From: a virus
Length of the DNA: 11,802 bases
Virus genome (UHGV): UHGV-0166849
Strand: one strand, 5' to 3'
Shown: positions 50-10,593 of the stretch, in pieces
Layout of the letters: the number at the start of each line of letters is the position of its first letter
Numbering within the stretch: the first letter of the stretch is position 1
Position numbers and translations under genes: made by a program
Notes under the pieces: generated by a model
Databases searched by the model: none
Told to the model about the DNA's origin: nothing
What the model saw: only the letters and a program-made list of their open reading frames with translations

Positions 50-2995
50 TTAGTGCTTCCCTTCTATTAAGTCTAACCTAGCTTTTATCTTATCCATTTC
101 TCTGCGCTGCCATGCTGCCTCGATATAGAATAAGAGATCAGGTCTGACCCCCCATCTAGATCCTGCTGGCGTTATTTCAACGCGCTCAATGATGTCTTCT
201 ATTACCATCACTGGATTATCATCCTCATCAACAATGATGCTCCCGTCATTATCAGTCAGCGGCATTTCCCTTTGGCCAGTAATGACGTCATCATATACTG
301 CGGGATAATCGTCATAGCAAAGAAAGGCATAGCGGCATGTTGTGCTTTCTTCTTCCATGAGTCCGTGAGAAATAAGAACATCACGAAGTTGCTGCGCGAT
401 TACACCATGATGTATCCTCGCCCCTTCTTCCCCCTTTATAGCGACAGCGTTCAGCCATTTATAAGCGATATACCTGACGTCACCCCAGGCATCCAGCAAT
501 GCTTCGTCAGGAGAGACCGGCTCTGTCTTTAATGTTCCGTCACTGGTAACCACAGGATTGGAGCCAAGATAAACTATCGAGAACCTGTTTCCCGGACCAC
601 CAAGAGCATTTACATTATCAAGATAAGGTTTAACATCTCCGTTCTCAAAAAGATGTTCGAGTGCGTTATATACCGCGCGACGTGGAGTACTGCTTCTGGA
701 ACCATGCAACGTTATCATTGCACCATCTGCTGAAGACGTTGTTTCACCGCCGCTAACGATTAATCTCTGAGCGGTAACATCATCAGACGGTACTTTCTTC
801 GCAATAATGGCGTAATTACCCTCAAGTTTGACTTCCGCGCGAACTTGTCCTGATGTACCTGCATGGACAGTCAGTGACTGGACGGCAACATCATCTGTGA
901 AATCAACGGGTACAGGAACCGTCCTCACGCCTGACGTCGACATAAAAGTAGGAAGCGTTCTGTTAGGAGTGGCTCCGTAGACAAAATCCCTTGAAACAAA
1001 TTCTTCCTGTTTAATTTTCACCCTGAAACAATACAAATCAGCCGGGTGACCATCGTGAACATAAGGATATTTTCTGTTGTTATCCCCTATGCTCCATGGG
1101 TTTAGAAAATCTTCCCCACCGAAAATGTAGTACAGCCAGTTGTCTTTGATACAAACTGAACCAACACCAACCGCAGAGTTAACTATTCCGCCCTGATAAA
1201 TCTGATCAGTAACATTAACCCACTCTACATTATCCAGACTCCACTCATTGACGTTAACTCTGGTCATAAATGTTCTTGGATAATTTCCTGCATAACGGTT
1301 ATCAGGTTCTCCTCCTTCCCACTCACCAAATGCGCGCTCACTGCCAAAAATAACCAGCTCATCGCCAACTTTGGCAAAAGGAAGGTTTGAGTGATGAACA
1401 TTATTTGGGAAGCGAAGAGAATTCCATGATGTACCTAAATCAGAGCTTCTGTGCAATGAACTACCGGGTTGAGTACTTAATGTCCCCCTGGTCGTCAGAT
1501 ACAGAATGCCATCATAATATTTTACACATGGCTCAGATGCATTCGCCTCATATTCTGCAGGTATGCGTCTGCGAACAAAGCTACCAGGAGAACCGAAAGC
1601 ATCAGAGAAATAGAGTATCCCAAGCTCGCGTGGACCAATATCACCATTATGGTAGCCAACAGCAAAACTGTTATCGCTAATCGTCGCAAAACTGTGAATC
1701 TCAGTAACAGGAGTGCTTCCGTCAACAAAAGAAGGAATAGTTCCAAGACTGGTTTTTCTCCATGGTGACGAGTGAAATGATGTGCCAAAACTCCAGTATC
1801 TACCCTCGTTATTCTGATCCACATCCTGGGTATTTTGCGTCGTAACTGTAAAGGTATTTTTATCAATAACAGTAGTCACCGTCATATTCCCGGTAACATC
1901 TGTAACACCAGAGTTTGAGAAGTTGACAAAATCACCAGCAAATAATCCGTGATCAGTAATGCGAATATAAGCGACTTGCTGATTTGCTGCTTTCGTTATA
2001 CCACCATAAACGCGAAGGCTGCGACTCATTGGGCGATCCCACAACTCTGCAACCTGCAGTTTATTTCCTCTCACGGTCCGCGTCTCAATTACAGCAAAAA
2101 GGCGATTTCTGACAACCCCCATACTCATGCAGTGATAGTTAACTGTGGGATAGTTTTCATGTAAATCTGTAAGCCATTCCGGCGTTGTCCAGGTCTTCCC
2201 GTCATCTCCTGAGCGAACCCATGCAACATGGAGGTTATTTACACCATGGCGGTCTCCAGCCATAAAAGGCGCATAGATGACATTGTCATATACAAACGTT
2301 TTATCCTGCGTCCAGGCGTTGTACCACGGTGTATCTGTAATTTTAAATAACTCTCCCTGGATAAAATCTTCAGAAGCATAAAAAAGAGGCTGACCCGGTA
2401 TTCTCTCAAATAAAAAACGAGCATTTTTAAATCGACTGACATCTGGAAGAGTTGATACTTTAAAAGTAAGCCCTCGCCCATCTATCTTTTCACCACCTGT
2501 TGCAACAGAAAGTAATTCTGATAGAGCTGATGTATCATCATGAACACCATCACCAATAGCCCCCCAACCTCTTACATCATAACTGTCTCTCCATCTTGCT
2601 ATCTGAAGTTTTGGGTATTTATTCGCTCCATCTGGGTCTTCTAATTGCCGCCGTAACTGATCAGGATCATACTTCAGCACATTAGGAAAATAAAACTGCT
2701 GTGAACCATATGCATCGTACACAGCCATAGAGTGACCTTGCACAGTTACGAACTTGGCAATCTGTCCGTTATATACCGGATATCCAGCAGCGTTAATGAT
2801 GATTGGTTGCGAAACAGGAACGTGAGAGCCGTCTTCGTTCTCCACATAAGCCTGAATCTGGTTTTCAGGATTTACCGGGTCAGTGTCAATTTTACCGATA
2901 TAAATTTTGCCATTGGCTACAGCTTTAAAAGAACGCGCCATAGTGAAGAGTTGCGAAGGCATGCTGACCACAACATTTGCGGTGATATCTGTCAT
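50..2995 (-). CDS. Tailspike protein (981 aa): P22 gp9-type head-binding N-domain + sialidase-like domain with Asp-boxes + C-terminal intramolecular chaperone-like domain; probable endo-N-acetylneuraminidase (endosialidase)
   Basis: Full-length ORF in track. N-terminus [11 protein letters not shown]...[22 protein letters not shown]...ENEDGSHV...NVLKYDPDQ closely matches my memory of the P22 tailspike head-binding domain. Two Asp-box motifs are read directly: SGDDGKTW (aa 262-269, nt ~2189-2212) and SSDLGTSW (aa 517-524, nt ~1424-1447). The C-terminal ~160 aa (motifs [25 protein letters not shown]) resemble endosialidase/tail-fibre C-terminal chaperone domains. SD GGAG lies 8 nt upstream of the ATG at 2995. 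Confidence 0.85.
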
Positions 2996-3095: not shown

Positions 3096-4019
3096 TCAGT
3101 AGTTATGTACTGAAGGAGGTAATTCTTTGTTCTTAAGTCTTATCCATGCTGAAAGGTTTGTTGGTCCGTCTGGCTCATTAATATCAACATCTCGTGTATG
3201 GTTGATTAAAACATCTCTCGCCATTCCGATAACATACGAGAACTCATAACCGCAGTCATGACATCTGCCGGAATAGTTCGATTGAATTTGTTTCAGCGCC
3301 GGATACAGTTCGCGGAATAATGCCTGTGAGCGGTTGGCATAATCCCATAGCCATACAAGGCTGTTTGCTTCTTTTGCAGAAAGCTCGTTGGTTTTCTTCT
3401 CTTGTTTGCCAATGAACTCACCTTCAAGTGGAACTCGAGCTGCAAGTGATAGTGCTTCGGTAAACTGCTCCTCACTGATTTCTTTGTACGAACATCCAAA
3501 ATGGGATTTCAGTGACGACCACATGGTGATCATCGCCTTAGCCCGTTTTTCTTTTGGCAGAGACTGACCGCGACTCATGACGAGTTGTTTAATGGCTTCC
3601 TGCTGTTCAGTGGTGATTTTACCCGGCAACGCCTTTTTAGCTTTGCGTGGGTTAACTACATAGCCTTTAGTCCAGTACTCGTAGAGCACATCGTCACACT
3701 CTTCCTGATACTGGATTACCTTGTCGCGGATTTCAGGGCGGACTTTGTTTGGCTGAATGCTTGAAAGCCAAGCCGCAAACTTACGAAAGGCAAGGCATAT
3801 CATTAACTGTTTACCGCCAGCAGAAGGTATTTCGATTTCCGAAATACCTTTGACAAATCTCTGTTTTAATTTAACAAATTGAGCAGCCCAAACCATACCC
3901 ATGCCTTCTACAACGGGTTTCATAGGAACGTAAGGTTCATTGTTAATGCTGACCAAAAAGAGATTTGTTCCGTGGAATGGAACGTTGATTGTATGTTCTG
4001 CAATTGCTACACTCGTCAT
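3096..4019 (-). CDS. ant: Antirepressor Ant (307 aa), AntA/Bro-N-like N-terminal domain
   Basis: ORF in track. Sits downstream of arc and upstream of the tailspike, as in P22 immI. N-terminal region (..VPFHGTNLFLV...PMKPVVEGMGMVWAAQ..KL) looks like phage antirepressor N-domains. SD AGGA ~8 nt upstream of the ATG at 4019. Confidence 0.75.
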   Translation of the reverse strand: MTSVAIAEHTINVPFHGTNLFLVSINNEPYVPMKPVVEGMGMVWAAQFVKLKQRFVKGISEIEIPSAGGKQLMICLAFRKFAAWLSSIQPNKVRPEIRDKVIQYQEECDDVLYEYWTKGYVVNPRKAKKALPGKITTEQQEAIKQLVMSRGQSLPKEKRAKAMITMWSSLKSHFGCSYKEISEEQFTEALSLAARVPLEGEFIGKQEKKTNELSAKEANSLVWLWDYANRSQALFRELYPALKQIQSNYSGRCHDCGYEFSYVIGMARDVLINHTRDVDINEPDGPTNLSAWIRLKNKELPPSVHNY

Positions 4020-4090
4020 GTCGTTAATTCCTATGCGTGGTTTTACGATACCGAAGCCCTGACTGTTCCCGCAGTTGGGGCTTCACTGTT
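4020..4090 (+). ncRNA. Candidate sar-like antisense RNA (~70 nt) complementary to the ant RBS and start region
   Basis: Plus-strand promoter-like hexamers inside the 5' end of ant: TTGATT (3985-3990), 17-bp spacer, TACACT (4008-4013), placing a start near 4020. Downstream is an imperfect hairpin GAAGCCC...GGGCTTC (about 4051-4081) followed by TTTTT (4085-4089). This matches the known P22 arrangement of sar RNA opposite the ant RBS. Prediction from sequence only. Confidence 0.3.
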
Positions 4091-4304
4091 TTTGTAAGTC
4101 ACTGTAGCTATAAAGCCACTGACCACTCATTTTTGATTTGATTGACTCTACTGAATCACGGCAAGGAATGATTCCACCTGACATCATTCTGATCTCCGTA
4201 AATTCACCACTCCTTATCGATTCAATGCCATCAATGTTAACTAAAGATTTACCTCTACCAAGTGCATTCTCATAGCCAATCTCATCAACCTCAATAAACT
4301 TCAT
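4083..4304 (-). CDS. Hypothetical protein (73 aa) located between arc and ant
   Basis: ORF in track. Its ATG overlaps the arc stop codon (ATGA at 4301-4304, minus strand), which suggests translational coupling. SD-like GAGGGGA upstream. No recognisable motif. As I recall P22 immI, there is no gene between arc and ant. Confidence 0.45.
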   Translation of the reverse strand: MKFIEVDEIGYENALGRGKSLVNIDGIESIRSGEFTEIRMMSGGIIPCRDSVESIKSKMSGQWLYSYSDLQKQ

Positions 4305-4459
4305 ACCGTTATCCCCTCTCTCTTCAGGCTGTCCAACACTCGCTTGTAAATCTCAGAGTTAACAGATCGCCCGTTCTCTTCAGCTACCTTGCGCACCAAA
4401 TCCAATACTTCTTTAGGCCACCGCAAATTGAACTGCGGCATTTTTCTTGCACCTTGCAT
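4301..4459 (-). CDS. arc: Arc transcriptional repressor (52 aa, ribbon-helix-helix)
   Basis: Not in the ORF track (below its size cutoff). Manual translation of the minus strand gives MQGARKMPQFNLRWPKEVLDLVRKVAEENGRSVNSEIYKRVLDSLKREGITV, near-identical in its first 40 residues to P22 Arc as I recall it (MKGMSKMPQFNLRWPREVLDLVRKVAEENGRSVNSEIYQRV...). SD AGGGGA upstream of the ATG at 4459. Confidence 0.85.
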   Translation of the reverse strand: MQGARKMPQFNLRWPKEVLDLVRKVAEENGRSVNSEIYKRVLDSLKREGITV

Positions 4460-4544: not shown

Positions 4545-4787
4545 GTGGCTAGAAATGATCCGCAATTCAACGTAAGAATGCCAGATGAGATAAAACAGCA
4601 ACTTACGCATATTGCTGCAACAAATCGTCGCTCTATCAATGCTGAAATTATTGCCGCTATCCAATTGTGGATAAAGATACATAAAGAGCAGGTAATACCT
4701 TCAAGTAGTCAGCAACTGACCAAGTCAGAGAAAGAGGCTCTTGATGTGACTATTGATGTTCTACAACGTGTAAGGGATGGGAAATGA
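4545..4787 (+). CDS. mnt: Mnt repressor (80 aa, ribbon-helix-helix, Arc/Mnt family)
   Basis: ORF in track with GTG start. N-terminus MARNDPQFNVRMP...RRSINAEI matches P22 Mnt as I recall it (MARDDPHFNFRMP...GRSMNSEL). Divergent from arc, with a strong SD AAGGAG 6 nt upstream. Confidence 0.85.
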   Translation: MARNDPQFNVRMPDEIKQQLTHIAATNRRSINAEIIAAIQLWIKIHKEQVIPSSSQQLTKSEKEALDVTIDVLQRVRDGK

Positions 4788-5056
4788 AACCAACGAACAA
4801 AGAAATTTTCGAGCAAATAAAAGTACTTCCTTTCACTATTGAGCTTGCAAAGAGATATGAAGCTTATTATCCGTTTACCGAAGAGTCGATACGGATAGAG
4901 ACATATGATGAGTTTGGTCAGTGCTCTATCTGGCTTGGCTTTGAAGACCAATTTGCTATACGTGATGCTTTTGGAAATTGGAGAATGGCTACAGCTGAAG
5001 AATGTATTGATCTCAGAGGTGGCAACCTTCCAGGTTCAATGACATTAGTTAATTAA
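4784..5056 (+). CDS. Hypothetical acidic protein (90 aa), translationally coupled to mnt
   Basis: ORF in track. Its ATG overlaps the mnt stop (ATGA at 4784-4787). Net acidic (15 D+E versus 9 K+R). No recognisable motif. Confidence 0.55.
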   Translation: MKPTNKEIFEQIKVLPFTIELAKRYEAYYPFTEESIRIETYDEFGQCSIWLGFEDQFAIRDAFGNWRMATAEECIDLRGGNLPGSMTLVN

Positions 5057-5080
5057 CGGCGTACATGGCAGGTATGTAAA

Positions 5081-5266
5081 ATGAATAATAAACCAATGTC
5101 TAACGAAGAGTTGCAGCGCGAGTTAAAGAAACTTCATAAACTGGTATCACTTATCTACTCCAAGTTGCCACCAGATGCTCGACAAGCTGTTTTTGATGAA
5201 CTAACAAGAAGCGGAGATAGGGATGATCTGGATACTGCTTCTCGTATCAATAGCTACCGTTTTTAA
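5081..5266 (+). CDS. Hypothetical protein (61 aa)
   Basis: ORF in track. Weak SD (AGGT) 7 nt upstream. Its last 20 nt overlap a convergent minus-strand small ORF. Coding status uncertain. Confidence 0.35.
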   Translation: MNNKPMSNEELQRELKKLHKLVSLIYSKLPPDARQAVFDELTRSGDRDDLDTASRINSYRF

Positions 5267-5426
5267 TAGCCTCCAGAGTCGAATCGTAACGACTGCGCAT
5301 TGATTTTGCTGATTTCTCAAGCTCTTCTGCTTGATGCTTCAGTGATTCAAGATGAAGCTCTCCAAGATGGCACTTCATCACTTTGATGGTGCGTTCAAGG
5401 TTTTCCACACGTTCTTCTATGGTCAT
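5247..5426 (-). CDS. Hypothetical protein (59 aa), helical and charged; not in the ORF track
   Basis: Manual translation gives MTIEERVENLERTIKVMKCHLGELHLESLKHQAEELEKSAKSMRSRYDSTLEAIKNGSY. Strong SD AAGGA 6 nt upstream of the ATG at 5426. No obvious promoter between it and the upstream terminator, so expression is uncertain. Confidence 0.35.
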   Translation of the reverse strand: MTIEERVENLERTIKVMKCHLGELHLESLKHQAEELEKSAKSMRSRYDSTLEAIKNGSY

Positions 5427-5458: not shown

Positions 5459-5490
5459 AAAAAAACCCACCTGACGGTGGGTTAATTTTT
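5459..5490. terminator. Bidirectional rho-independent terminator
   Basis: A-run (5459-5465), perfect 8-bp stem AACCCACC/GGTGGGTT with loop TGAC (5464-5483), then AATTTTT (5484-5490). The A-run on one side and T-run on the other allow termination in both directions. Confidence 0.65.
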
Positions 5491-5508
5491 GCATTTACCT
5501 GGGCCATA

Positions 5509-5537
5509 TTGACTACTCATAAAATGAGATCAATATT
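5509..5537 (+). promoter_or_regulatory. Candidate sigma70 promoter for the small gene at 5574, with an inverted repeat in the spacer
   Basis: -35 TTGACT (5509-5514), 17-bp spacer, -10 AATATT (5532-5537). The spacer contains the inverted repeat CTCAT-AAAA-TGAG (5517-5529), a possible operator. Confidence 0.35.
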
Positions 5538-5573
5538 TAATCGCCCAATAACGGGTGTATGTTGAGGTATATC

Positions 5574-5753
5574 ATGGCGAAAAAACCAGGTGAAAACACA
5601 GGAAAAAACGGCGGAATATACCAAGAAGTTGGCCCACGCGGCGGTAAGAAAGACAATTTTGCAACCGTCAAGGACAACGAAAGGCTTCCACCAACAACAA
5701 AGCCAGGTCATGGCTGGGTATTGGATAAGCGAACTCCAGACAGCAAAAAGTAA
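5574..5753 (+). CDS. Hypothetical small basic protein (59 aa; alternative start at 5559 gives 64 aa)
   Basis: ORF in track. SD GAGG (5564-5567) 6 nt upstream of the ATG at 5574. Gly/Lys/Pro-rich sequence MAKKPGENTGKNGGIYQEVGPRGGKK...LPPTTKPGHGWVLD. I have a vague sense this resembles a conserved small-protein family but cannot name it. Confidence 0.55.
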   Translation: MAKKPGENTGKNGGIYQEVGPRGGKKDNFATVKDNERLPPTTKPGHGWVLDKRTPDSKK

Positions 5754-5766
5754 TACTCAAGCCGGG

Positions 5767-6132
5767 TCACTCCGGCTTTTTGATATGTCGCTCGCAGAAC
5801 TCAACAAGCCTGCTCATTAAGTAGCAGTAAGTCTCATTGGCTCTTCCTGGTTCAACATCAACACCGACCCTTGAGCAGATATCGAATGCCATGTGAGCGC
5901 ACTCATGGGCAATAGTAGATAGTTTGCCATTGAACACGCCTATCACATGCAAAACACCATTCTCGCTGCTCATTGTATGAGACGCTCCGTTGGCGTCCGA
6001 GTCATGCACGTCAACGCCAAGTTTTTGATGCAGGCGTTGCCATTCTGGAAAGTCTCTACAAAACACAATTGTACCGCTCTCAAAGAGCGGAACGAGCATC
6101 TTTGGTACGTTTCCAATGTTAACTTTTTTCAT
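5767..6132 (-). CDS. Hypothetical HExxH-motif protein (121 aa); candidate mini zinc-metallopeptidase
   Basis: ORF in track starts at a TTG at 6171. I prefer the first ATG at 6132, which has SD AGGA ~5 nt upstream. Contains HECAH (aa 76-80) with Glu residues 14 and 20 aa downstream, consistent with a zincin HExxH...E arrangement. The overlapping plus-strand translation looks non-protein-like. Confidence 0.55.
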   Translation of the reverse strand: MKKVNIGNVPKMLVPLFESGTIVFCRDFPEWQRLHQKLGVDVHDSDANGASHTMSSENGVLHVIGVFNGKLSTIAHECAHMAFDICSRVGVDVEPGRANETYCYLMSRLVEFCERHIKKPE

Positions 6133-6162
6133 GGTATCCTGCTCAAAACTAAGGAGCTTGGT

Positions 6163-6552
6163 GTGAAGCAATTTCTTGCTGCTATGTTCTTATTCATATC
6201 TTTTGGGGCTACAGCAGAGTGCTGGGTCGTTGGAGATATGCGCGGAATAAGCTATTCAGAACGAAATAATTTCCATCCGGAAGAAGATGGTTTTAGTGGA
6301 ACATTCATCATTAAGACAAGCGGTGAAGATGCCAGCATCACATATTCTGGGACAGATGCGGGCGGCATGGCTTACAAAGCATTGTCTAAAAACTCCATCA
6401 TAGGAATCGGCGCGAATGGCGAAACTCAACGCGTTATCGACTCATGGGTAATACATCCTACTGGAACAGTTTTAATGTCAAAAACCATTTCTGGTTATGG
6501 GAATATGGATTCAACCAAAGCTTTTGTTGGAAAAGTAAAAAGAAAATGTTAA
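6163..6552 (+). CDS. Hypothetical secreted/periplasmic protein (129-aa precursor) with Sec signal peptide
   Basis: Start re-called to the GTG at 6163, with SD AAGGAG (6151-6156) 6 nt upstream. N-terminus MKQFLAAMFLFISFGATA|ECW has an n-h-c signal-peptide layout with an A-x-A cleavage site. The predicted mature protein has one Cys at residue 2 and one as the C-terminal residue. No lipobox. Opposite orientation to the late operon, at the position P22 uses for sieA. Confidence 0.6.
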   Translation: MKQFLAAMFLFISFGATAECWVVGDMRGISYSERNNFHPEEDGFSGTFIIKTSGEDASITYSGTDAGGMAYKALSKNSIIGIGANGETQRVIDSWVIHPTGTVLMSKTISGYGNMDSTKAFVGKVKRKC

Positions 6553-6576: not shown

Positions 6577-8418
6577 TTACTGCTGTGTTGCCTCAGTAGC
6601 AAGCAGCGGCCTGATGGCATTTGCAGCGTTACTCAACGCTCTTTCATAGGCTGGTGTTCCTGCTTTGGTGTTTGCCAGACGTAAGAGCGCATTCCTTGCT
6701 GCTTTGGACTCATACAAGCGCATCATTGCACCGAAACCAGCCTCAAGCCCCATTGATACGCCAAGAGTCGCAGTTGCGCCAATCGTCCTTATCCTGTTGG
6801 CTTGCGATTGCCCCGTCTGAGTTACTACATTTGCGGTGTCTGACCTTGCTGTTTGCTGCAGAACTTCATGAAGAGCATCAAGTTCTTTCATGTGCTTTCC
6901 AGAAAAAATAGTGTTGTAAATTTCACCGCCTGACTGAGATTTCAGCTTATTAACTTCAGTGATGAACTTGGCTGGAGAGTCACCGGCCTTTTCCGCTATT
7001 TTGCTGACGTAAGCTGCACGCATAGCATCTTTCCCTTTATCATCCAGTGCGCTCCAGATTCGTTTCACGTCAGATGGTTTTCTGCTTAATACAACGGTAT
7101 TTATAAGTTCAGGACTGGCTTCACTGCTTGCCTTGTTGAGTTTGTTAGCAATGTTTTTATTAAGCACCTTATTATAAACGTTTGCATAATCGGAATTTGC
7201 TTTAAGGTATTTTGCTGCGTCTGATGCACCGAGGTTTTTAGCAACTGCGTTACGAAGGTCTTTTGACATTGCATTCTCTACCATATTGGTAGCTGCTTTT
7301 GCCTGGTTGGGGAAGACCATAGCATCTCCCTGAACATTAGATCTAAATGCTGTTCTGTGCTGACGCAAGAGATCAAACGTAACATCCAAATCAGTTGCAG
7401 GGTTTGCTAATTCTTCACGTAGGTTACGCAAGGATGTAAGCAGGCTTTGATTGGCAGACGTCCCAAGTCGTTCCTGTCTTGCGATCGCTGTATTCAGAGC
7501 ATTCATGGTATTTGTGGTATCAACTGCGGCATTACCCATTTTATTGGTGACGTCATTGATAACAGCGCCAGCGGCATCCTTCCTCCCCCTTAACGTGGTG
7601 GTCAGAGATTTCACCACATCATCAGGGTTGTACTCACCAAAACGGTCAAAATAATTACTTACCAGCTTACTACGCGTTGCATATTGCTCCGCTCGCTTTG
7701 AGCCTGTCCCGAGCAAAGCCCCCTCGGCATCCTGAGTAAGGCCGCGAGTGAAAGCATTTTTCGGCGGGATAACATCAGATGTCATTGGTGTCACGCCCAT
7801 CGATTCTGATGTGGCAATTTTCTTCGCCACTTCTGGCGCAATATCACCTTTTATAGCCGTTATTCCACGCCCTATTCCCTTTGCTGCGGCGGAAAGAACA
7901 CCCTGAGCGGCAAGGTTAACTCCGGCATTTTTAGCTGCATTTTGTGCGAAATCGCCTTTCTGATTTGCGGCCTCTGCCAGTGATCCAATAGCCATGCTTC
8001 CTGCCGTTCCAACTCCTGGAACTAAATACCCACCAATTGTTTCACCGGCTTGTGCGTAGGGGTCTGTCGGTCTGTCTACTGGACGATAAACATCATCCAA
8101 AACCTTGGGTCCACCAAGCCCCTGACTGATTGCATTAATCAGACTTGCGCCACCCTGCAATACGTCAAATGGTATGTTTACCAGACCACGACCAGCCTGT
8201 TCTGCAATTTGCTCTGCACTTTGACCACCAGTGAGCCAATCGCCAGCTTGTTGCATCAATGATGGTTCTTCCCGTGTTGGTGCATTATTGGCCTGATTAA
8301 CTGTTTGTTGCTGAACAGCCTGACCAGCAAAATACTCATCAATGGCGGTGCCAATATCTTCGGTGCTCGTACCATCAGGAAAGGTAAATGTCTTACCGTT
8401 TGCAGTTACTTTCATCAT
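6577..8418 (-). CDS. Ejection (pilot) protein, P22 gp16-like (about 612 aa)
   Basis: ORF in track. Size and position (last gene of the gp7-gp20-gp16 series, immediately before the immI/accessory region) match P22 gene 16. Its start overlaps the gp20-like stop (ATGA). Confidence 0.8.
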
Positions 8419-9890
8419 TCCACCGTAAATTGAATGCCTGATTTTGAGGTATATGATCCGGATTGACTCTGCTGCTGTTGGGTATTTGTCGGTTGTTGGC
8501 TATTGCTCTGTTGTTGACTATTTGCAGCACTTGAAACCACCAAAGCATCATAAACGCGACCAGACTGACCACGTAATGAGTTATATTGGCCCTGCATTTT
8601 TCGCATTTTTGTTTCAGTAGCAGCCTTGGAATCACCGGGCTGAGGGAGGTACATTTTGGAATACTCCTGCATCTCTGGCAGAGTAATTGCTGCACCTGTT
8701 TCTGGGCGCAAAATTGCATACAAGGCGTCTCTCGCATTTACCATATATTGCTGCTCCGCTGGTGATAGGCTTAAATTTGCAATAGTTCCATCACCAAGAG
8801 AGCGATTTATTAATGCAACTCGCTTAGGGTCAATGCTTTTACTAAGCTGATTCATTGAGTCCATTGAATCTTTTAATCGCAAAGCAAATCCCGCCGCCTT
8901 CTTGGAACCCTCATTAGCCTTATCTATGATGCTTTGCGCTTGTGGCAAGCTAATTGGTTTAATGCCATCACCAGATATAGGTTGGTTTAGTTTTCCGGCT
9001 TCCTCGCTGCCATCGGTGTAATACTTAGTTACCGAGCCATCAGGATTGGTTTCAACCTTAAGTAATTTCTTAGCATTGGGATTAATTCCCGCCGCTGCCG
9101 CAAATGCCGCTGCACCATCTGGATCTACCTTTAACATTTGCGCGTACTGATTGTAATTCTGCATTGCGGCTGTTGGTGCATATGCTGACGTTAACGCATT
9201 TGCTCGGCTAATATCCTGCCCTCTCGCCTGAAGTGCTTCACCAGCCTGATTGCTGCGGATTGTCTCTGCCAGTCTGCCTCGGTCAATTTCACGACCAGCC
9301 ATCTTGTCCTGAACAGCAAACGCCTTTTCTGGTCCAAGCGCACCGAGAGACATAGTAGTCAGCATGTGTGATAGCTGCTCTGGATTCTGGATACCTGTCT
9401 GAATCATCCAGTCAGCATTCGCCCCCACGCGATTTAACCTGTCCTTGTTGTCAGTAATGAATTTACTGTAGGCTTCCGGTCCCTGAGAAAGAGCGACGTT
9501 AGCTCTCATGGCTAAATCGCCCATATCGTTGCGTTGCTGATCATTAAGACCTGAAAACGCCTGTTGTGCCTGTGCAACAAACGCTGGATTTTCCTGGGCA
9601 AACTTAAATAGTCCCGATGGATCACCAGAAGCCCATGCATCAGCATGAACCTTATTGAACGCACTAATCGCTTTCTGTTGCTGTTCCTGATTGTAAATAT
9701 CAGCAACTCCAGCCAGACCACGTAACGCGGTCAGACCAACGTTATTTGTACCTGAGCGAGCCAGTTCATTGTTTTCGCGGATCAGACCAAGCGTTGCGTT
9801 AATGTCGCTTGCCTTTGGCGCATTCTCATTTTGCGTACCGATGCCAGCCAGAAAACCACCAGAATTAATACCCTGTTGCCAATTAGCCAT
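8415..9890 (-). CDS. Ejection protein, P22 gp20-like (491 aa)
   Basis: ORF in track. Position between the gp7-like and gp16-like genes. Gln/Ala/Gly-rich. Size close to P22 gp20 (about 471 aa as I recall). Confidence 0.8.
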
Positions 9891-9900
9891 TGATTACCCC

Positions 9901-10593
9901 TTAAAACAGCGAACCAAGCAGACCAAGACCAGCACCGATACCAGCACCCCACGGAGTTGATAGCTCGAGAGCACTGGCTATACCACCACCCAAAAGCGCA
10001 CCGGATGCAGCACCACTAACACCCTGCCGCAATGCTGACGGTCGGTTGGCGTTTGCCGCCGCCAGCGCCGCGCTTTGCTGTGAAATCTGACTCATGTTGT
10101 TGGCATATGTTTGCCCGGCGTTTGCCTGCCCCTGAAGAGCGCCAAGACCGATATTTGCCAGGTTGTTGTAATTGTTCATTTGTCCAGACAGCCATTGCTG
10201 ACCAAGCGTTGGTGCGATTGTTGCTAACTGATTACTGGTTGCGGTGGAACCCAATCCACCTGTTGCTTCCGCTGCCGCCAGACTCTGATAGCGAGCCTGA
10301 CCAGCAAGATCTTTGTACTGCTGAGAGTTGTAATACTGGTTAAGTGCCTGACCTTGCCCTTCCAGAGACGATAAGTTCTCAAGGCTGCCGACATACTTCC
10401 CAGCCAGAGGAGTAAACGGCTTCAGGTTGTTCATGATGGTGTTGAACTGCTGATTTTGCAGGTCTGCGGCATACTTCTGAGCTTCTGCGGCATACTTTGC
10501 ACTTTTATCAGAACTGCCACCTTTCCCGCCTTTTTCAGGGCAATAAGGTTCCTCGCCGCGCAGTTTTCTGCCCAGCTTAAATGCATATAACAT
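9901..10593 (-). CDS. Ejection protein, P22 gp7-like (230 aa)
   Basis: ORF in track. Size matches P22 gp7 (about 229 aa). N-terminus MLYAF.LGRKLRGEEP and a Gly/Ala-rich hydrophobic C-terminus. Separated by 2 nt from the upstream gp14-like stop. Confidence 0.8.
   Translation of the reverse strand: MLYAFKLGRKLRGEEPYCPEKGGKGGSSDKSAKYAAEAQKYAADLQNQQFNTIMNNLKPFTPLAGKYVGSLENLSSLEGQGQALNQYYNSQQYKDLAGQARYQSLAAAEATGGLGSTATSNQLATIAPTLGQQWLSGQMNNYNNLANIGLGALQGQANAGQTYANNMSQISQQSAALAAANANRPSALRQGVSGAASGALLGGGIASALELSTPWGAGIGAGLGLLGSLF

What the first reader, a model, noticed from the sequence alone, without database searches (positions are those of the whole stretch)
5509..6552. Three-gene accessory cluster at the sieA position: small basic protein, HExxH mini-metallopeptidase candidate, and secreted Cys-capped protein
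In P22, superinfection-exclusion and moron genes lie between gene 16 and mnt. Here that position holds three compact genes of unknown function in alternating orientation, bounded by a bidirectional terminator on one side and the gp16-like gene on the other. A peptidase-like cytoplasmic protein next to an exported protein, at a known lysogenic-conversion hotspot, is a plausible uncharacterised exclusion or defence module. This is the best candidate in the window for an undescribed system.
Basis: inference. Interest (0 to 1): 0.7.

Follow-up and report, generated by a model that had tools for sequence, protein, structure and literature searches.

The report
Two accessory cassettes beside P22 gp16
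The three small genes are real, but they are two independent prophage add-ons rather than one system: a gene pair that phage P22 itself carries (a tiny basic protein and a probable mini zinc-protease), and a separate exported barrel protein that replaces the superinfection-exclusion gene sieA; none has a known function.

Summary
All three ORFs exist, alternate in orientation (+,-,+) and are under purifying selection. They are not a co-inherited module.

**g1 and g2.** g1 (5574-5753) is P22 orf59a. g2 (5767-6132, minus strand) is hkcC, which is intact but unannotated in the P22-pbi record. The literature lists both as function-unknown genes of the P22 "ant moron". Window 5459-6165 is ~98% identical to P22. 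The two genes form a convergent cassette sharing a hairpin: 80 of 80 orf59a loci carry hkcC. The cassette also sits among siphovirus tail genes.

**hkcC.** It belongs to a family with no Pfam or NCBIfam model (517 representative clusters). Its only invariant residues are H76, E77, H80 and E100, a thermolysin-type zinc site. It always faces the same way as the late genes.

**g3.** g3 (6163-6552) replaces the sieA ORF exactly at the shared GTG, keeping sieA's promoter region and Shine-Dalgarno. It has a signal peptide and a confidently predicted β-barrel with invariant terminal cysteines. It also occurs without g1/g2, next to a Rap1a-family T6SS immunity gene, next to a cI-type repressor and after tail-fibre genes. 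A Serratia fonticola chromosomal remnant keeps orf59a and g3 intact while hkcC has decayed.

**Likely roles (inferred).** hkcC is probably a late phage metallopeptidase. g3 is probably a lysogen-expressed periplasmic protective protein. No defence-system model matches any of the three.

The parts
5464..5483 (.). Bidirectional intrinsic-terminator hairpin (AACCCACC-TGAC-GGTGGGTT) with U/A tracts on both sides. It forms the left boundary. P22 homology starts here.
   Evidence: -14.1/-15.5 kcal/mol, z -3.9/-4.5; alignment to P22.
5509..5537 (+). Sigma-70-like promoter candidate for orf59a (TTGACT-17-AATATT). It is conserved in P22 and in the siphovirus copies of the cassette. The Serratia remnant has TTGCAA-17-TAATAT at the homologous place.
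   Evidence: scan; conserved block in A5; Serratia sequence. Function as a promoter is inferred.
5574..5753 (+). g1 = orf59a (P22 gene 59a): 59 aa, pI 9.9, no signal peptide. It has a weak YjzC-like profile match that falls below the Pfam cut-off.
5759..5778 (+). Hairpin annotated as t_mnt in P22 (AAGCCGG-GTCACT-CCGGCTT + UUUUU). It terminates the orf59a transcript and overlaps the stop codon of hkcC on the other strand. It is conserved, with compensatory changes, in the three siphovirus-type copies of the cassette.
5767..6132 (-). g2 = hkcC: 121 aa, cytoplasmic, predicted order β-β-α-β-β-α-α with HECAH (76-80) on helix 71-88 and invariant E100 (in NETYCYL) at the start of helix 100-116. Candidate mini-gluzincin. 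Same orientation as the late genes 16, 20, 7 and the tailspike.
6102..6132 (+). Region identical to the annotated PsieA promoter of P22 (P22-pbi 13861-13891). It lies inside the 5' end of hkcC on the opposite strand.
   Evidence: annotation; alignment; offset window = L001 + 2459. Activity in this phage is inferred.
6151..6165 (+). Shine-Dalgarno AAGGAG (6151-6156) and GTG start (6163-6165), both shared with P22 sieA. P22 identity ends exactly at the GTG.
6163..6552 (+). g3: 129 aa. Signal peptide residues 1-18 (A-T-A | E-C). The mature protein is ~111 aa and is predicted as a closed up-and-down β-barrel with invariant Cys20 and Cys129 at the barrel seam. It is an ORF-for-ORF replacement of sieA.
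6577..8418 (-). gp16-type ejection protein gene (context, right boundary), convergent with g3 and 24 nt from it.
   Evidence: (PF26808 in homologous loci).

Best explanation
Window 5509-6552 is a mosaic of two independent accessory cassettes in the "ant moron"/sieA hotspot of a P22-like prophage.

**Cassette 1 (shown).** This is the 59a/hkcC pair that P22 itself carries. orf59a has its own sigma-70-type promoter and ends at a hairpin that overlaps the stop codon of the convergent hkcC. The unit moves as a block between P22-like podoviruses and lambdoid siphoviruses, always with hkcC pointing in the direction of the late/structural genes.

**hkcC (inferred).** It is a ~13.6 kDa cytoplasmic zinc metallopeptidase of the gluzincin type, with H76-E77-x-x-H80 plus E100. 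It is probably made by read-through of the antiterminated late transcript and acts for the phage late in infection on an unknown protein substrate.

**orf59a (inferred).** It is a small basic cytoplasmic protein made in the lysogen from its own promoter.

**Cassette 2 (shown).** g3 replaces the sieA ORF precisely at the shared GTG, so it inherits the region annotated as the PsieA promoter in P22, together with sieA's Shine-Dalgarno sequence.

**g3 (inferred).** It is expressed in the lysogen, exported by Sec, cleaved after A-T-A, and folds in the periplasm into a small β-barrel stapled by a Cys20-Cys129 disulfide. There it binds and neutralises a protein arriving from outside: either the ejection or cell-wall-degrading apparatus of a superinfecting phage, or a periplasm-acting antibacterial effector.
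For: **Composite origin.**
- Window 5459-6165 is 97.7% identical to P22 and covers the end of mnt, orf59a, t_mnt, an intact but unannotated 121-aa ORF, and PsieA.
- Identity stops at the GTG shared by sieA and g3.
- The literature names these genes 59a and hkcC, both of unknown function.

**The 59a/hkcC cassette.**
- 80 of 80 orf59a loci have hkcC adjacent and convergent.
- The same pair, 13-14 bp apart, lies between tail genes in Klebsiella, Rosenbergiella and metagenomic siphovirus-type prophages.
- The conserved DNA block spans the promoter, orf59a, the hairpin and hkcC, with unrelated flanks.

**Zincin assignment for hkcC.**
- 517 representative clusters.
- H76, E77, H80 and E100 are the only invariant columns in 105 sequences at 23-44% identity.
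- The H-to-E spacing (24 from the first His) equals that of thermolysin H142...E166 within an NE motif (established knowledge).
- Model pLDDT is 89 with both motifs on helices.
- Weak hits to myroilysin/astacins, M3 and M9 peptidases and SprT-like.

**Late orientation.** hkcC and its distant relatives always face the same way as the late genes: between spanin and dec/terminase, or among tail genes.

**g3.**
- Signal peptide plus invariant C20/C129.
- Purifying selection.
- SieA and g3 are never both present in the 80 loci (14 each).
- g3 repeatedly sits in co-directional arrays of exported proteins, including a bona fide Rap1a-family gene (55 bits versus cut-off 27.7), a secreted 99-aa protein and a lipoprotein.
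- g3 is also found at other classic moron sites.

**Natural experiment.** The S. fonticola chromosomal remnant keeps orf59a and two g3 paralogues intact, while hkcC is fragmented and reads HKCDH.
Against: - No biochemical or genetic data exist for any of the three genes.
- Late expression is inferred from orientation only. No promoter or transcript data were examined.
- g3's fold is generic and names no function. No target protein or cognate effector gene was seen next to any homologue.
- PsieA activity in this phage is assumed from sequence identity to P22.
- 74 of the 80 census loci are near-identical P22-like elements, so the 80/80 linkage rests on few independent lineages: those plus about 4 diverged contexts.
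Confidence: 0.55

Rival explanations
1. One reading: the three genes are one co-functioning exclusion or defence module, made of a cytoplasmic peptidase, an exported protein and a small basic protein.
For: The three genes are contiguous here, in phage ST-35, in 21 complete E. coli genomes and in an E. coli prophage remnant. The same order (orf59a, hkcC remnant, g3) recurs at deep divergence in Serratia fonticola.
Against: - 66 of 80 orf59a/hkcC loci lack g3 and hold SieA, a lipoprotein or nothing instead.
- g3 occurs without the pair after mnt-Rap1a, after mnt alone, beside a cI-type repressor and after tail fibres.
- There are three transcription units on two strands, with hkcC facing the late operon.
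- hkcC has decayed in the Serratia remnant while the other two are intact.
- No PADLOC hit.
- The recurrence of the gene order is explained by the fixed architecture of the P22-like mnt-to-gp16 region.
Confidence: 0.06
2. g3 is specifically a periplasmic superinfection-exclusion factor. It would be a functional substitute for SieA that blocks the trans-envelope ejection conduit (gp7/gp20/gp16) or the wall-degrading activity of incoming P22-like phages.
For: - It occupies sieA's exact position and expression signals.
- It is mutually exclusive with SieA in 80 loci.
- In P22-like phages it always abuts the gp16 gene, including a diverged phage whose gp16 carries an SLT domain.
- SieA is known to act on gp16/gp20 function.
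- T4 Sp is a precedent for a periplasmic inhibitor of an incoming phage lysozyme (own knowledge).
Against: - g3 has no similarity to SieA, which is a multi-pass inner-membrane protein.
- g3 homologues also sit in non-P22-like prophages and as stand-alone chromosomal genes.
- It is co-operonic with a T6SS-immunity-family gene.
Confidence: 0.3
3. g3 is an orphan periplasmic immunity protein. It would neutralise a peptidoglycan- or membrane-targeting effector delivered by T6SS or a bacteriocin, carried by prophages as a host-fitness moron.
For: - It lies directly downstream of a Rap1a-family gene (PF18602, E 1e-14) in six distinct E. coli prophage contexts.
- It sits in arrays with other small exported proteins.
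- Tandem diverged paralogues are retained in the S. fonticola chromosome, a pattern typical of immunity genes.
- It is small, disulfide-bonded and periplasmic, like many Tai/Tsi/Rap proteins (own knowledge).
Against: - No effector gene is adjacent in any locus examined.
- There is no sequence or fold match to any known immunity family.
- Rap1a adjacency is seen in only one of several arrangements.
Confidence: 0.3
4. orf59a and hkcC are a toxin-antitoxin or abortive-infection pair, for example a protease toxin held in check by the small basic protein, or the reverse.
For: There is perfect linkage and tight convergent packing with a shared hairpin. One partner is small and the other a putative enzyme.
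Against: - The genes are convergent rather than co-transcribed.
- Eighty loci with distant hkcC-family members have no orf59a-like ORF within 2.5 kb.
- S. fonticola keeps orf59a under strong purifying selection (pN 0.06 against saturated pS) after hkcC has decayed.
- There is no match in PADLOC, including its Abi/TA-type models.
Confidence: 0.07
5. hkcC is not a peptidase. The HExxH...E residues would bind a metal for a different hydrolytic or purely structural role, or the protein would be a catalytically silent binder.
For: - At 121 aa it is smaller than most active zincins.
- No curated peptidase family accepts it.
Against: Absolute invariance of exactly the four catalytic/ligand residues across 105 diverse sequences. 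Minigluzincins of about 100 aa are active peptidases (own knowledge). The profile aligns to the strand plus HExxH helix of myroilysin and astacins.
Confidence: 0.15

Closest known systems
P22 genes 59a and hkcC (the 'ant moron' of P22-like phages; hkcC first named in HK620)
   Same: g1 is 98% and g2 about 98-99% identical to the P22 sequences. Order, orientation, promoter, hairpin and flanks match from window 5459 to 6165.
   Different: Nothing of substance; these are the same genes. In this window an extra ~0.7 kb with three small ORFs and a strong terminator separates mnt from orf59a, so orf59a cannot be co-transcribed from Pmnt here.
Gluzincin metallopeptidases (thermolysin-type HExxH + NE...; minigluzincins)
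   Same: HExxH on a helix, Glu 20 residues after the second His within an N-E motif on the next helix, and a preceding β-sheet. These four residues are the only invariant ones in the family.
   Different: Only 121 aa. No significant sequence or structure match to any curated peptidase family. Activity is untested.
P22 SieA (superinfection exclusion, blocks DNA ejection)
   Same: Identical genomic slot, promoter region, Shine-Dalgarno and start codon. Mutually exclusive in 80 loci. Presumably expressed in the lysogen.
   Different: [quoted passage not shown]
Rap1a/Tai4-type periplasmic T6SS immunity proteins
   Same: Small, Sec-exported, Cys-containing periplasmic protein. g3 lies immediately downstream of a true Rap1a-family gene in E. 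coli P22-like prophages. Tandem paralogues occur in Serratia.
   Different: g3 gives no Rap1a hit. It is predicted all-β rather than helical, and no effector is known.
Small periplasmic β-barrel inhibitors (MliC/PliC lysozyme inhibitors; Brucella PhiA)
YjzC-like small proteins (PF14168)
   Same: orf59a aligns over nearly the whole 55-residue profile (positions 8-54), with the G-x-Y...GPRGG...PPT pattern.
   Different: The score of 19.4 bits is below the curated cut-off of 25. The family itself has no known function.

Membership tests
Gluzincin (HExxH+E) zinc metallopeptidases | HExxH motif on an α-helix | tested here: met
   HECAH at residues 76-80 inside predicted helix 71-88. H76, E77 and H80 are invariant in 105 sequences.
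Gluzincin (HExxH+E) zinc metallopeptidases | Third metal ligand is a Glu about 18-30 residues downstream on the following helix | tested here: met
   E100 is invariant, 20 residues after H80, within an NE motif at the start of helix 100-116.
Gluzincin (HExxH+E) zinc metallopeptidases | Zincin fold recognisable by structure comparison | tested here: inconclusive
Gluzincin (HExxH+E) zinc metallopeptidases | Zinc binding and peptidase activity | not testable with these tools
   Needs purified protein.
SprT-like (PF10263) / ImmA-IrrE (PF06114) small zincins | Score above the Pfam gathering threshold | tested here: not met
   hkcC has no Pfam hit at E <= 0.1. Only 3 of 105 relatives touch SprT-like, best E 1e-4. 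ImmA/IrrE is never listed.
YjzC-like (PF14168) | Score above the Pfam gathering threshold (25 bits) | tested here: not met
   orf59a scores 19.4 bits, E 0.0013, although it is aligned over profile positions 8-54 of 55.
SieA superinfection-exclusion proteins | Sequence similarity to SieA types A-C, and an inner-membrane protein (per; multi-pass topology from own knowledge) | tested here: not met
   P22 identity stops at the start codon. Apart from the cleavable leader, the g3 model is all β-strand and the mature protein has GRAVY -0.31; no TM predictor was run. A P22 SieA query detects nothing at the g3 positions.
SieA superinfection-exclusion proteins | Location between gene 16 and gene 9 homologues of a P22-like prophage, expressed from the prophage | tested here: met
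   Same slot, same promoter region and same start codon. Expression itself was not measured.
Rap1a (PF18602) T6SS immunity proteins | Pfam profile match | tested here: not met
   g3 has no hit. The neighbouring 111-aa gene in loci L004-L009 does match (55.3 bits).
Known anti-phage defence systems (PADLOC-DB v2) | Any component model matching g1, g2 or g3 | tested here: not met
   No families at E <= 0.1 for any of the three.
Outer-membrane β-barrel proteins | C-terminal aromatic β-signal and a hydrophobic barrel exterior | tested here: not met
   The C-terminus is ...KVKRKC, and G-K-C in homologues. The mature protein has GRAVY -0.31 with 24 charged residues.
Bacterial lipoproteins | Lipobox [LVI][ASTVI][GAS]C | tested here: not met
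   The sequence is A-T-A-E-C. Glu or Asp precedes the Cys in many homologues, which is incompatible with a lipobox.
Type II toxin-antitoxin pairs (for 59a/hkcC) | Co-transcribed adjacent genes with obligate co-occurrence of both partners | tested here: not met
   The genes are convergent. Distant hkcC relatives lack 59a. Serratia keeps 59a without a functional hkcC.

The most novel reading that the evidence does not exclude
Two things may be new.

1. g3 may found a new class of lysogen-expressed periplasmic protective proteins: a disulfide-stapled mini-barrel that blocks either the P22-type ejection conduit from the periplasmic side (a soluble counterpart of SieA) or a periplasm-acting antibacterial effector. 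It would be traded among prophages as a single-gene moron and domesticated by Serratia.

2. hkcC may represent a large, unrecognised family of late-expressed phage mini-metalloproteases whose job is to destroy a host or prophage protein late in infection, conceivably the lysogeny-expressed 59a protein encoded tail-to-tail with it.
Probability: 0.2. Interest if true: 0.65.

Novelty: new variant of a known kind. Interest (0 to 1): 0.4.

Why it matters
P22 is one of the most studied phages, yet hkcC and 59a have remained blank for decades. hkcC is not even annotated in the P22-pbi record examined here. hkcC belongs to a family of more than 500 clusters with a strictly conserved zinc-peptidase site and a stereotyped late-operon position. 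That gives a concrete, testable biochemical handle on a widespread phage function.

g3 shows that the sieA slot is a swap site for envelope-directed proteins: SieA, a lipoprotein, a Rap1a-family immunity gene and this barrel. If g3 proves to be an exclusion or immunity factor, it would add a soluble periplasmic mechanism to a locus so far known only for a membrane protein.

The Serratia remnant offers a ready comparative argument that 59a and g3 benefit the host while hkcC benefits the phage. None of this is yet more than inference. As it stands, the region is an ordinary mosaic of function-unknown morons.

Tried and rejected
1. **The P22 pid ORFan.** I recalled it as possibly lying here. The papers place it between orf25 and orf80, so the lead was rejected.
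2. **Curated libraries.** Pfam, NCBIfam and PADLOC give nothing above threshold for g2 or g3, and only a sub-threshold YjzC hit for g1.
3. **PDB sequence-profile searches.** Nothing for A1, and noise for A2. With the deep alignment A6 there are only weak myroilysin/astacin hits at E ~0.01.
4. **Structure searches.**
   - BFVD Foldseek on g3: no hit at E <= 0.001.
   - The AFDB50 library was unavailable.
5. **Is the 161-aa gene upstream of g3 in Salmonella loci a SieA?** No; BLASTP E 1.6, and it is a lipoprotein of unknown function.
6. **Pattern-based locus searches.** The deep alignments A6 and A8 failed for lack of a conserved 7-10-mer. Narrower alignments were used instead. The genome-collection scan returned only three loci.
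7. **Literature.** No functional study was found under orf59a or hkcC, and nothing on Rap1a genes in P22-like prophages.
8. **Outer-membrane barrel, lipoprotein and toxin-antitoxin readings.** All were considered and rejected (see the membership tests).
Full report
**Setting.** The window is the late/immI end of a P22-like (Lederbergvirus-type) prophage:
- tailspike, 50-2995 (-)
- ant, 3096-4019 (-)
- arc, 4301-4459 (-)
- an Arc/Mnt-family repressor, 4545-4787 (+)
- the flagged region, 5509-6552
- homologues of ejection-protein genes 16, 20 and 7: 6577-8418, 8415-9890 and 9901-10593 (all -)

**Observation.** The three ORFs are real.
- g1 is 5574-5753 (+), 59 aa, pI 9.9.
- g2 is 5767-6132 (-), 121 aa, with HECAH at residues 76-80.
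- g3 is 6163-6552 (+), 129 aa. It starts at a GTG and has a hydrophobic leader ending A-T-A, then E-C. It ends in ...KRKC.
- The longer ORF calls (64, 134 and 201 aa) are upstream extensions. The 201-aa ORF runs antisense through g2.
- A strong bidirectional terminator hairpin lies at 5464-5483.
- Each protein hits one function-unknown PHROG strongly: phrog_3202, phrog_1365 and phrog_2651.
- Against diverged homologues, synonymous sites are saturated (pS 0.72-0.93). pN is 0.06-0.17 for g1, 0.24-0.29 for g2 and 0.23-0.40 for g3. All three are therefore genuine, selected genes.

**Two of the three genes are P22's own.**
- Window 5459-6165 is 97.7% identical to P22.
- In the P22-pbi record this stretch holds the end of mnt, orf59a, the terminator t_mnt and the promoter PsieA.
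- It also holds an intact 121-aa ORF on the other strand that the record does not annotate. SE1 and UAB_Phi20 do annotate it.
- The literature calls it hkcC, after phage HK620. It lists "hkcC, 59a" as two genes of unknown function in the P22 "ant moron" (PMC2629481; PMC4837284).
- I first suspected the pid ORFan, but that lies elsewhere in P22.

**g3 replaces sieA to the nucleotide.** The pairwise alignment shows identity through the PsieA region and the AAGGAG Shine-Dalgarno, and it ends at the GTG used by both sieA and g3. g3 therefore inherits sieA's expression signals. PsieA lies inside the 5' end of hkcC on the opposite strand, and the two start codons are 30 nt apart.

**59a and hkcC form a mobile convergent pair.**
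- All 80 IMG/VR loci retrieved with orf59a carry hkcC adjacent and convergent. Caveat: 74 of these are near-identical P22-like elements.
- More telling are siphovirus-type prophages of Klebsiella oxytoca, Rosenbergiella and a metagenome. There an hkcC homologue (57-63% identity) sits between tail-tube/chaperone genes and the tape-measure gene, in the direction of the tail genes. A convergent 59-aa gene that is 76-81% identical to orf59a follows 13-14 bp later.
- The DNA alignment shows one conserved block: the hkcC start, a hairpin that overlaps hkcC's stop codon (with compensatory stem changes), orf59a, and a TTGACT-17-AATATT promoter-like element (window 5509-5537). The flanks are unrelated.

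**hkcC is a candidate mini-gluzincin of a large family with no Pfam or NCBIfam model.**
- A profile search of 1.84 billion representatives found 517 clusters at E <= 0.001, nearly all 110-130 aa.
- In an alignment of 105 of them (23-44% identical to hkcC), the only invariant columns are H76, E77, H80 and E100.
- The spacing and the N-E context match thermolysin's H142-E143-x-x-H146...E166 (established knowledge).
- The AlphaFold model is confident (pLDDT 89). It places the motifs on consecutive helices after a small sheet.
- Profile-to-PDB search gives weak myroilysin/astacin matches across the strand and HExxH helix.
- 3 of 105 members touch Pfam SprT-like.
- Eighty loci with distant members (about 38% identical to hkcC) show a stereotyped position after the lysis cassette and just before the terminase genes, in late orientation. 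This includes "orf129" of ST64T/L, a second paralogue carried by several P22-like phages. None of the 80 has an orf59a-like ORF within 2.5 kb.
- So the zincin-like protein is a late-operon function in its own right. Only the hkcC branch travels with 59a.

**g3 is an independent, promiscuous moron encoding an exported barrel.**
- The family is confined to Enterobacterales and is always about 128 aa. Its invariant residues are C20, W21, G28, D42, G46, W95, G123 and C129.
- Glu or Asp often precedes the first Cys. This excludes a lipobox and implies signal peptidase I cleavage.
- Contexts seen:
  - mnt, a Rap1a-family gene, then g3 in six E. coli prophage contexts
  - a lipoprotein (161 aa), g3, then a secreted 99-aa protein in Salmonella, with variable upstream genes
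  - mnt then g3, overlapping, followed by the 99-aa homologue in a diverged P22-like phage
  - beside a cI-type repressor in a Lelliottia prophage, and after tail-tip/fibre genes in an Erwinia prophage
  - beside a resolvase
- Among the 80 orf59a loci, the slot next to gp16 holds g3 in 14, SieA in 14 (never both), the lipoprotein in 15 and nothing in 22. The remaining 15 loci had no gp16 match, so their slot could not be scored.
- In 5,426 complete E. coli genomes, 282 have a match but only 21 carry all three genes. In the rows sampled (12 of 285 records listed), the other matches cover either the 59a/hkcC part or the g3 part, and the break falls in the PsieA/5'UTR region.

**A natural experiment.** In the Serratia fonticola chromosome there are no phage genes nearby; the locus lies between dsbB/usp and minCDE. 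The order found there is:
- an intact orf59a homologue (78% identity), with a TTGCAA-17-TAATAT promoter
- a fragmented hkcC on the opposite strand, reading HKCDH
- an intact g3 homologue (40% identity)
- a tandem g3 paralogue (30% identity)

orf59a there is under strong constraint (pN 0.055 against pS 0.83 versus the Klebsiella copy). This fits a domesticated remnant in which the host keeps the two lysogen-expressed genes and discards the late phage gene. It also argues against an obligate 59a/hkcC toxin-antitoxin relationship.

**Interpretation.**
- Shown: the anatomy, the composite origin, the linkage patterns, the invariant residues and the predicted folds.
- Inferred: hkcC is a late-expressed zinc peptidase. 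59a is a lysogen-expressed cytoplasmic protein. g3 is a DsbA-dependent periplasmic binder that neutralises an incoming protein.
- Whether g3 targets a superinfecting phage or an antibacterial effector cannot be decided here. I rate the two about equally.

**Novelty.** The genes are catalogued as hypothetical proteins, and two of them are named in the P22 literature. What appears new:
- the gluzincin signature and the breadth of the hkcC family
- the mobility of the 59a/hkcC cassette
- the start-codon-precise swap of sieA for g3
- the Serratia remnant

Interest is moderate.

Noticed in passing
window 4784-5426: Relative to P22, three extra small ORFs (90 aa +, 61 aa +, 59 aa -) are inserted between the mnt-like repressor gene and the terminator at 5464. 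The same trio of gene sizes, order and orientation recurs in a Salmonella prophage (L016 2577-3219), where a YafO-toxin-family gene follows. PHROG hits are unknown-function only.
   Followed up: partly
window 4083-4304 (-): A 73-aa ORF (phrog_11805, E 4e-53, function unknown) lies between arc and ant, where P22 has only the short sar antisense-RNA interval.
   Followed up: no
L180 2501-2869; phage L record MW013503 39868-40257: P22-like phages such as ST160, ST64T, L, SE1 and ST-35 carry a second, distant paralogue of the hkcC family. It is the uncharacterised 'orf129' between the spanin genes and dec, in late orientation.
   Followed up: partly
L004-L009 5650-5985: E. coli P22-like prophages encode a bona fide Rap1a-family (PF18602, 55 bits) signal-peptide protein in the mnt operon, immediately upstream of the g3 homologue. 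This points to prophage-borne orphan T6SS immunity genes at the sieA slot.
   Followed up: partly
L183 5428-6795 (Serratia fonticola chromosome): A domesticated remnant contains an intact orf59a, a decayed hkcC (HKCDH, broken frame), an intact g3 homologue and a tandem 30%-identical g3 paralogue. It lies between dsbB/usp and minCDE with no other phage genes within 6 kb.
   Followed up: yes
L188 6719-9229: In a diverged P22-like phage the gp16 homologue is 836 aa and carries an SLT lytic-transglycosylase domain fused to the gp16 domain. It sits next to a 52%-identical g3 homologue.
   Followed up: no
window 5543-5556: A short inverted repeat (GCCCAATAACGGGT) lies between the -10 of the orf59a promoter candidate and its Shine-Dalgarno. 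It is partly conserved in the siphovirus and Serratia copies and could be an operator or a 5'UTR hairpin.
   Followed up: no
L019 5001-5405 (E. coli chromosome): A common E. coli prophage remnant (the g3 variant P0012 stands for 642 member sequences) ends inside g3. The C-terminus is replaced and the terminal Cys lost, and the remnant abuts gntP-type chromosomal genes.
   Followed up: no
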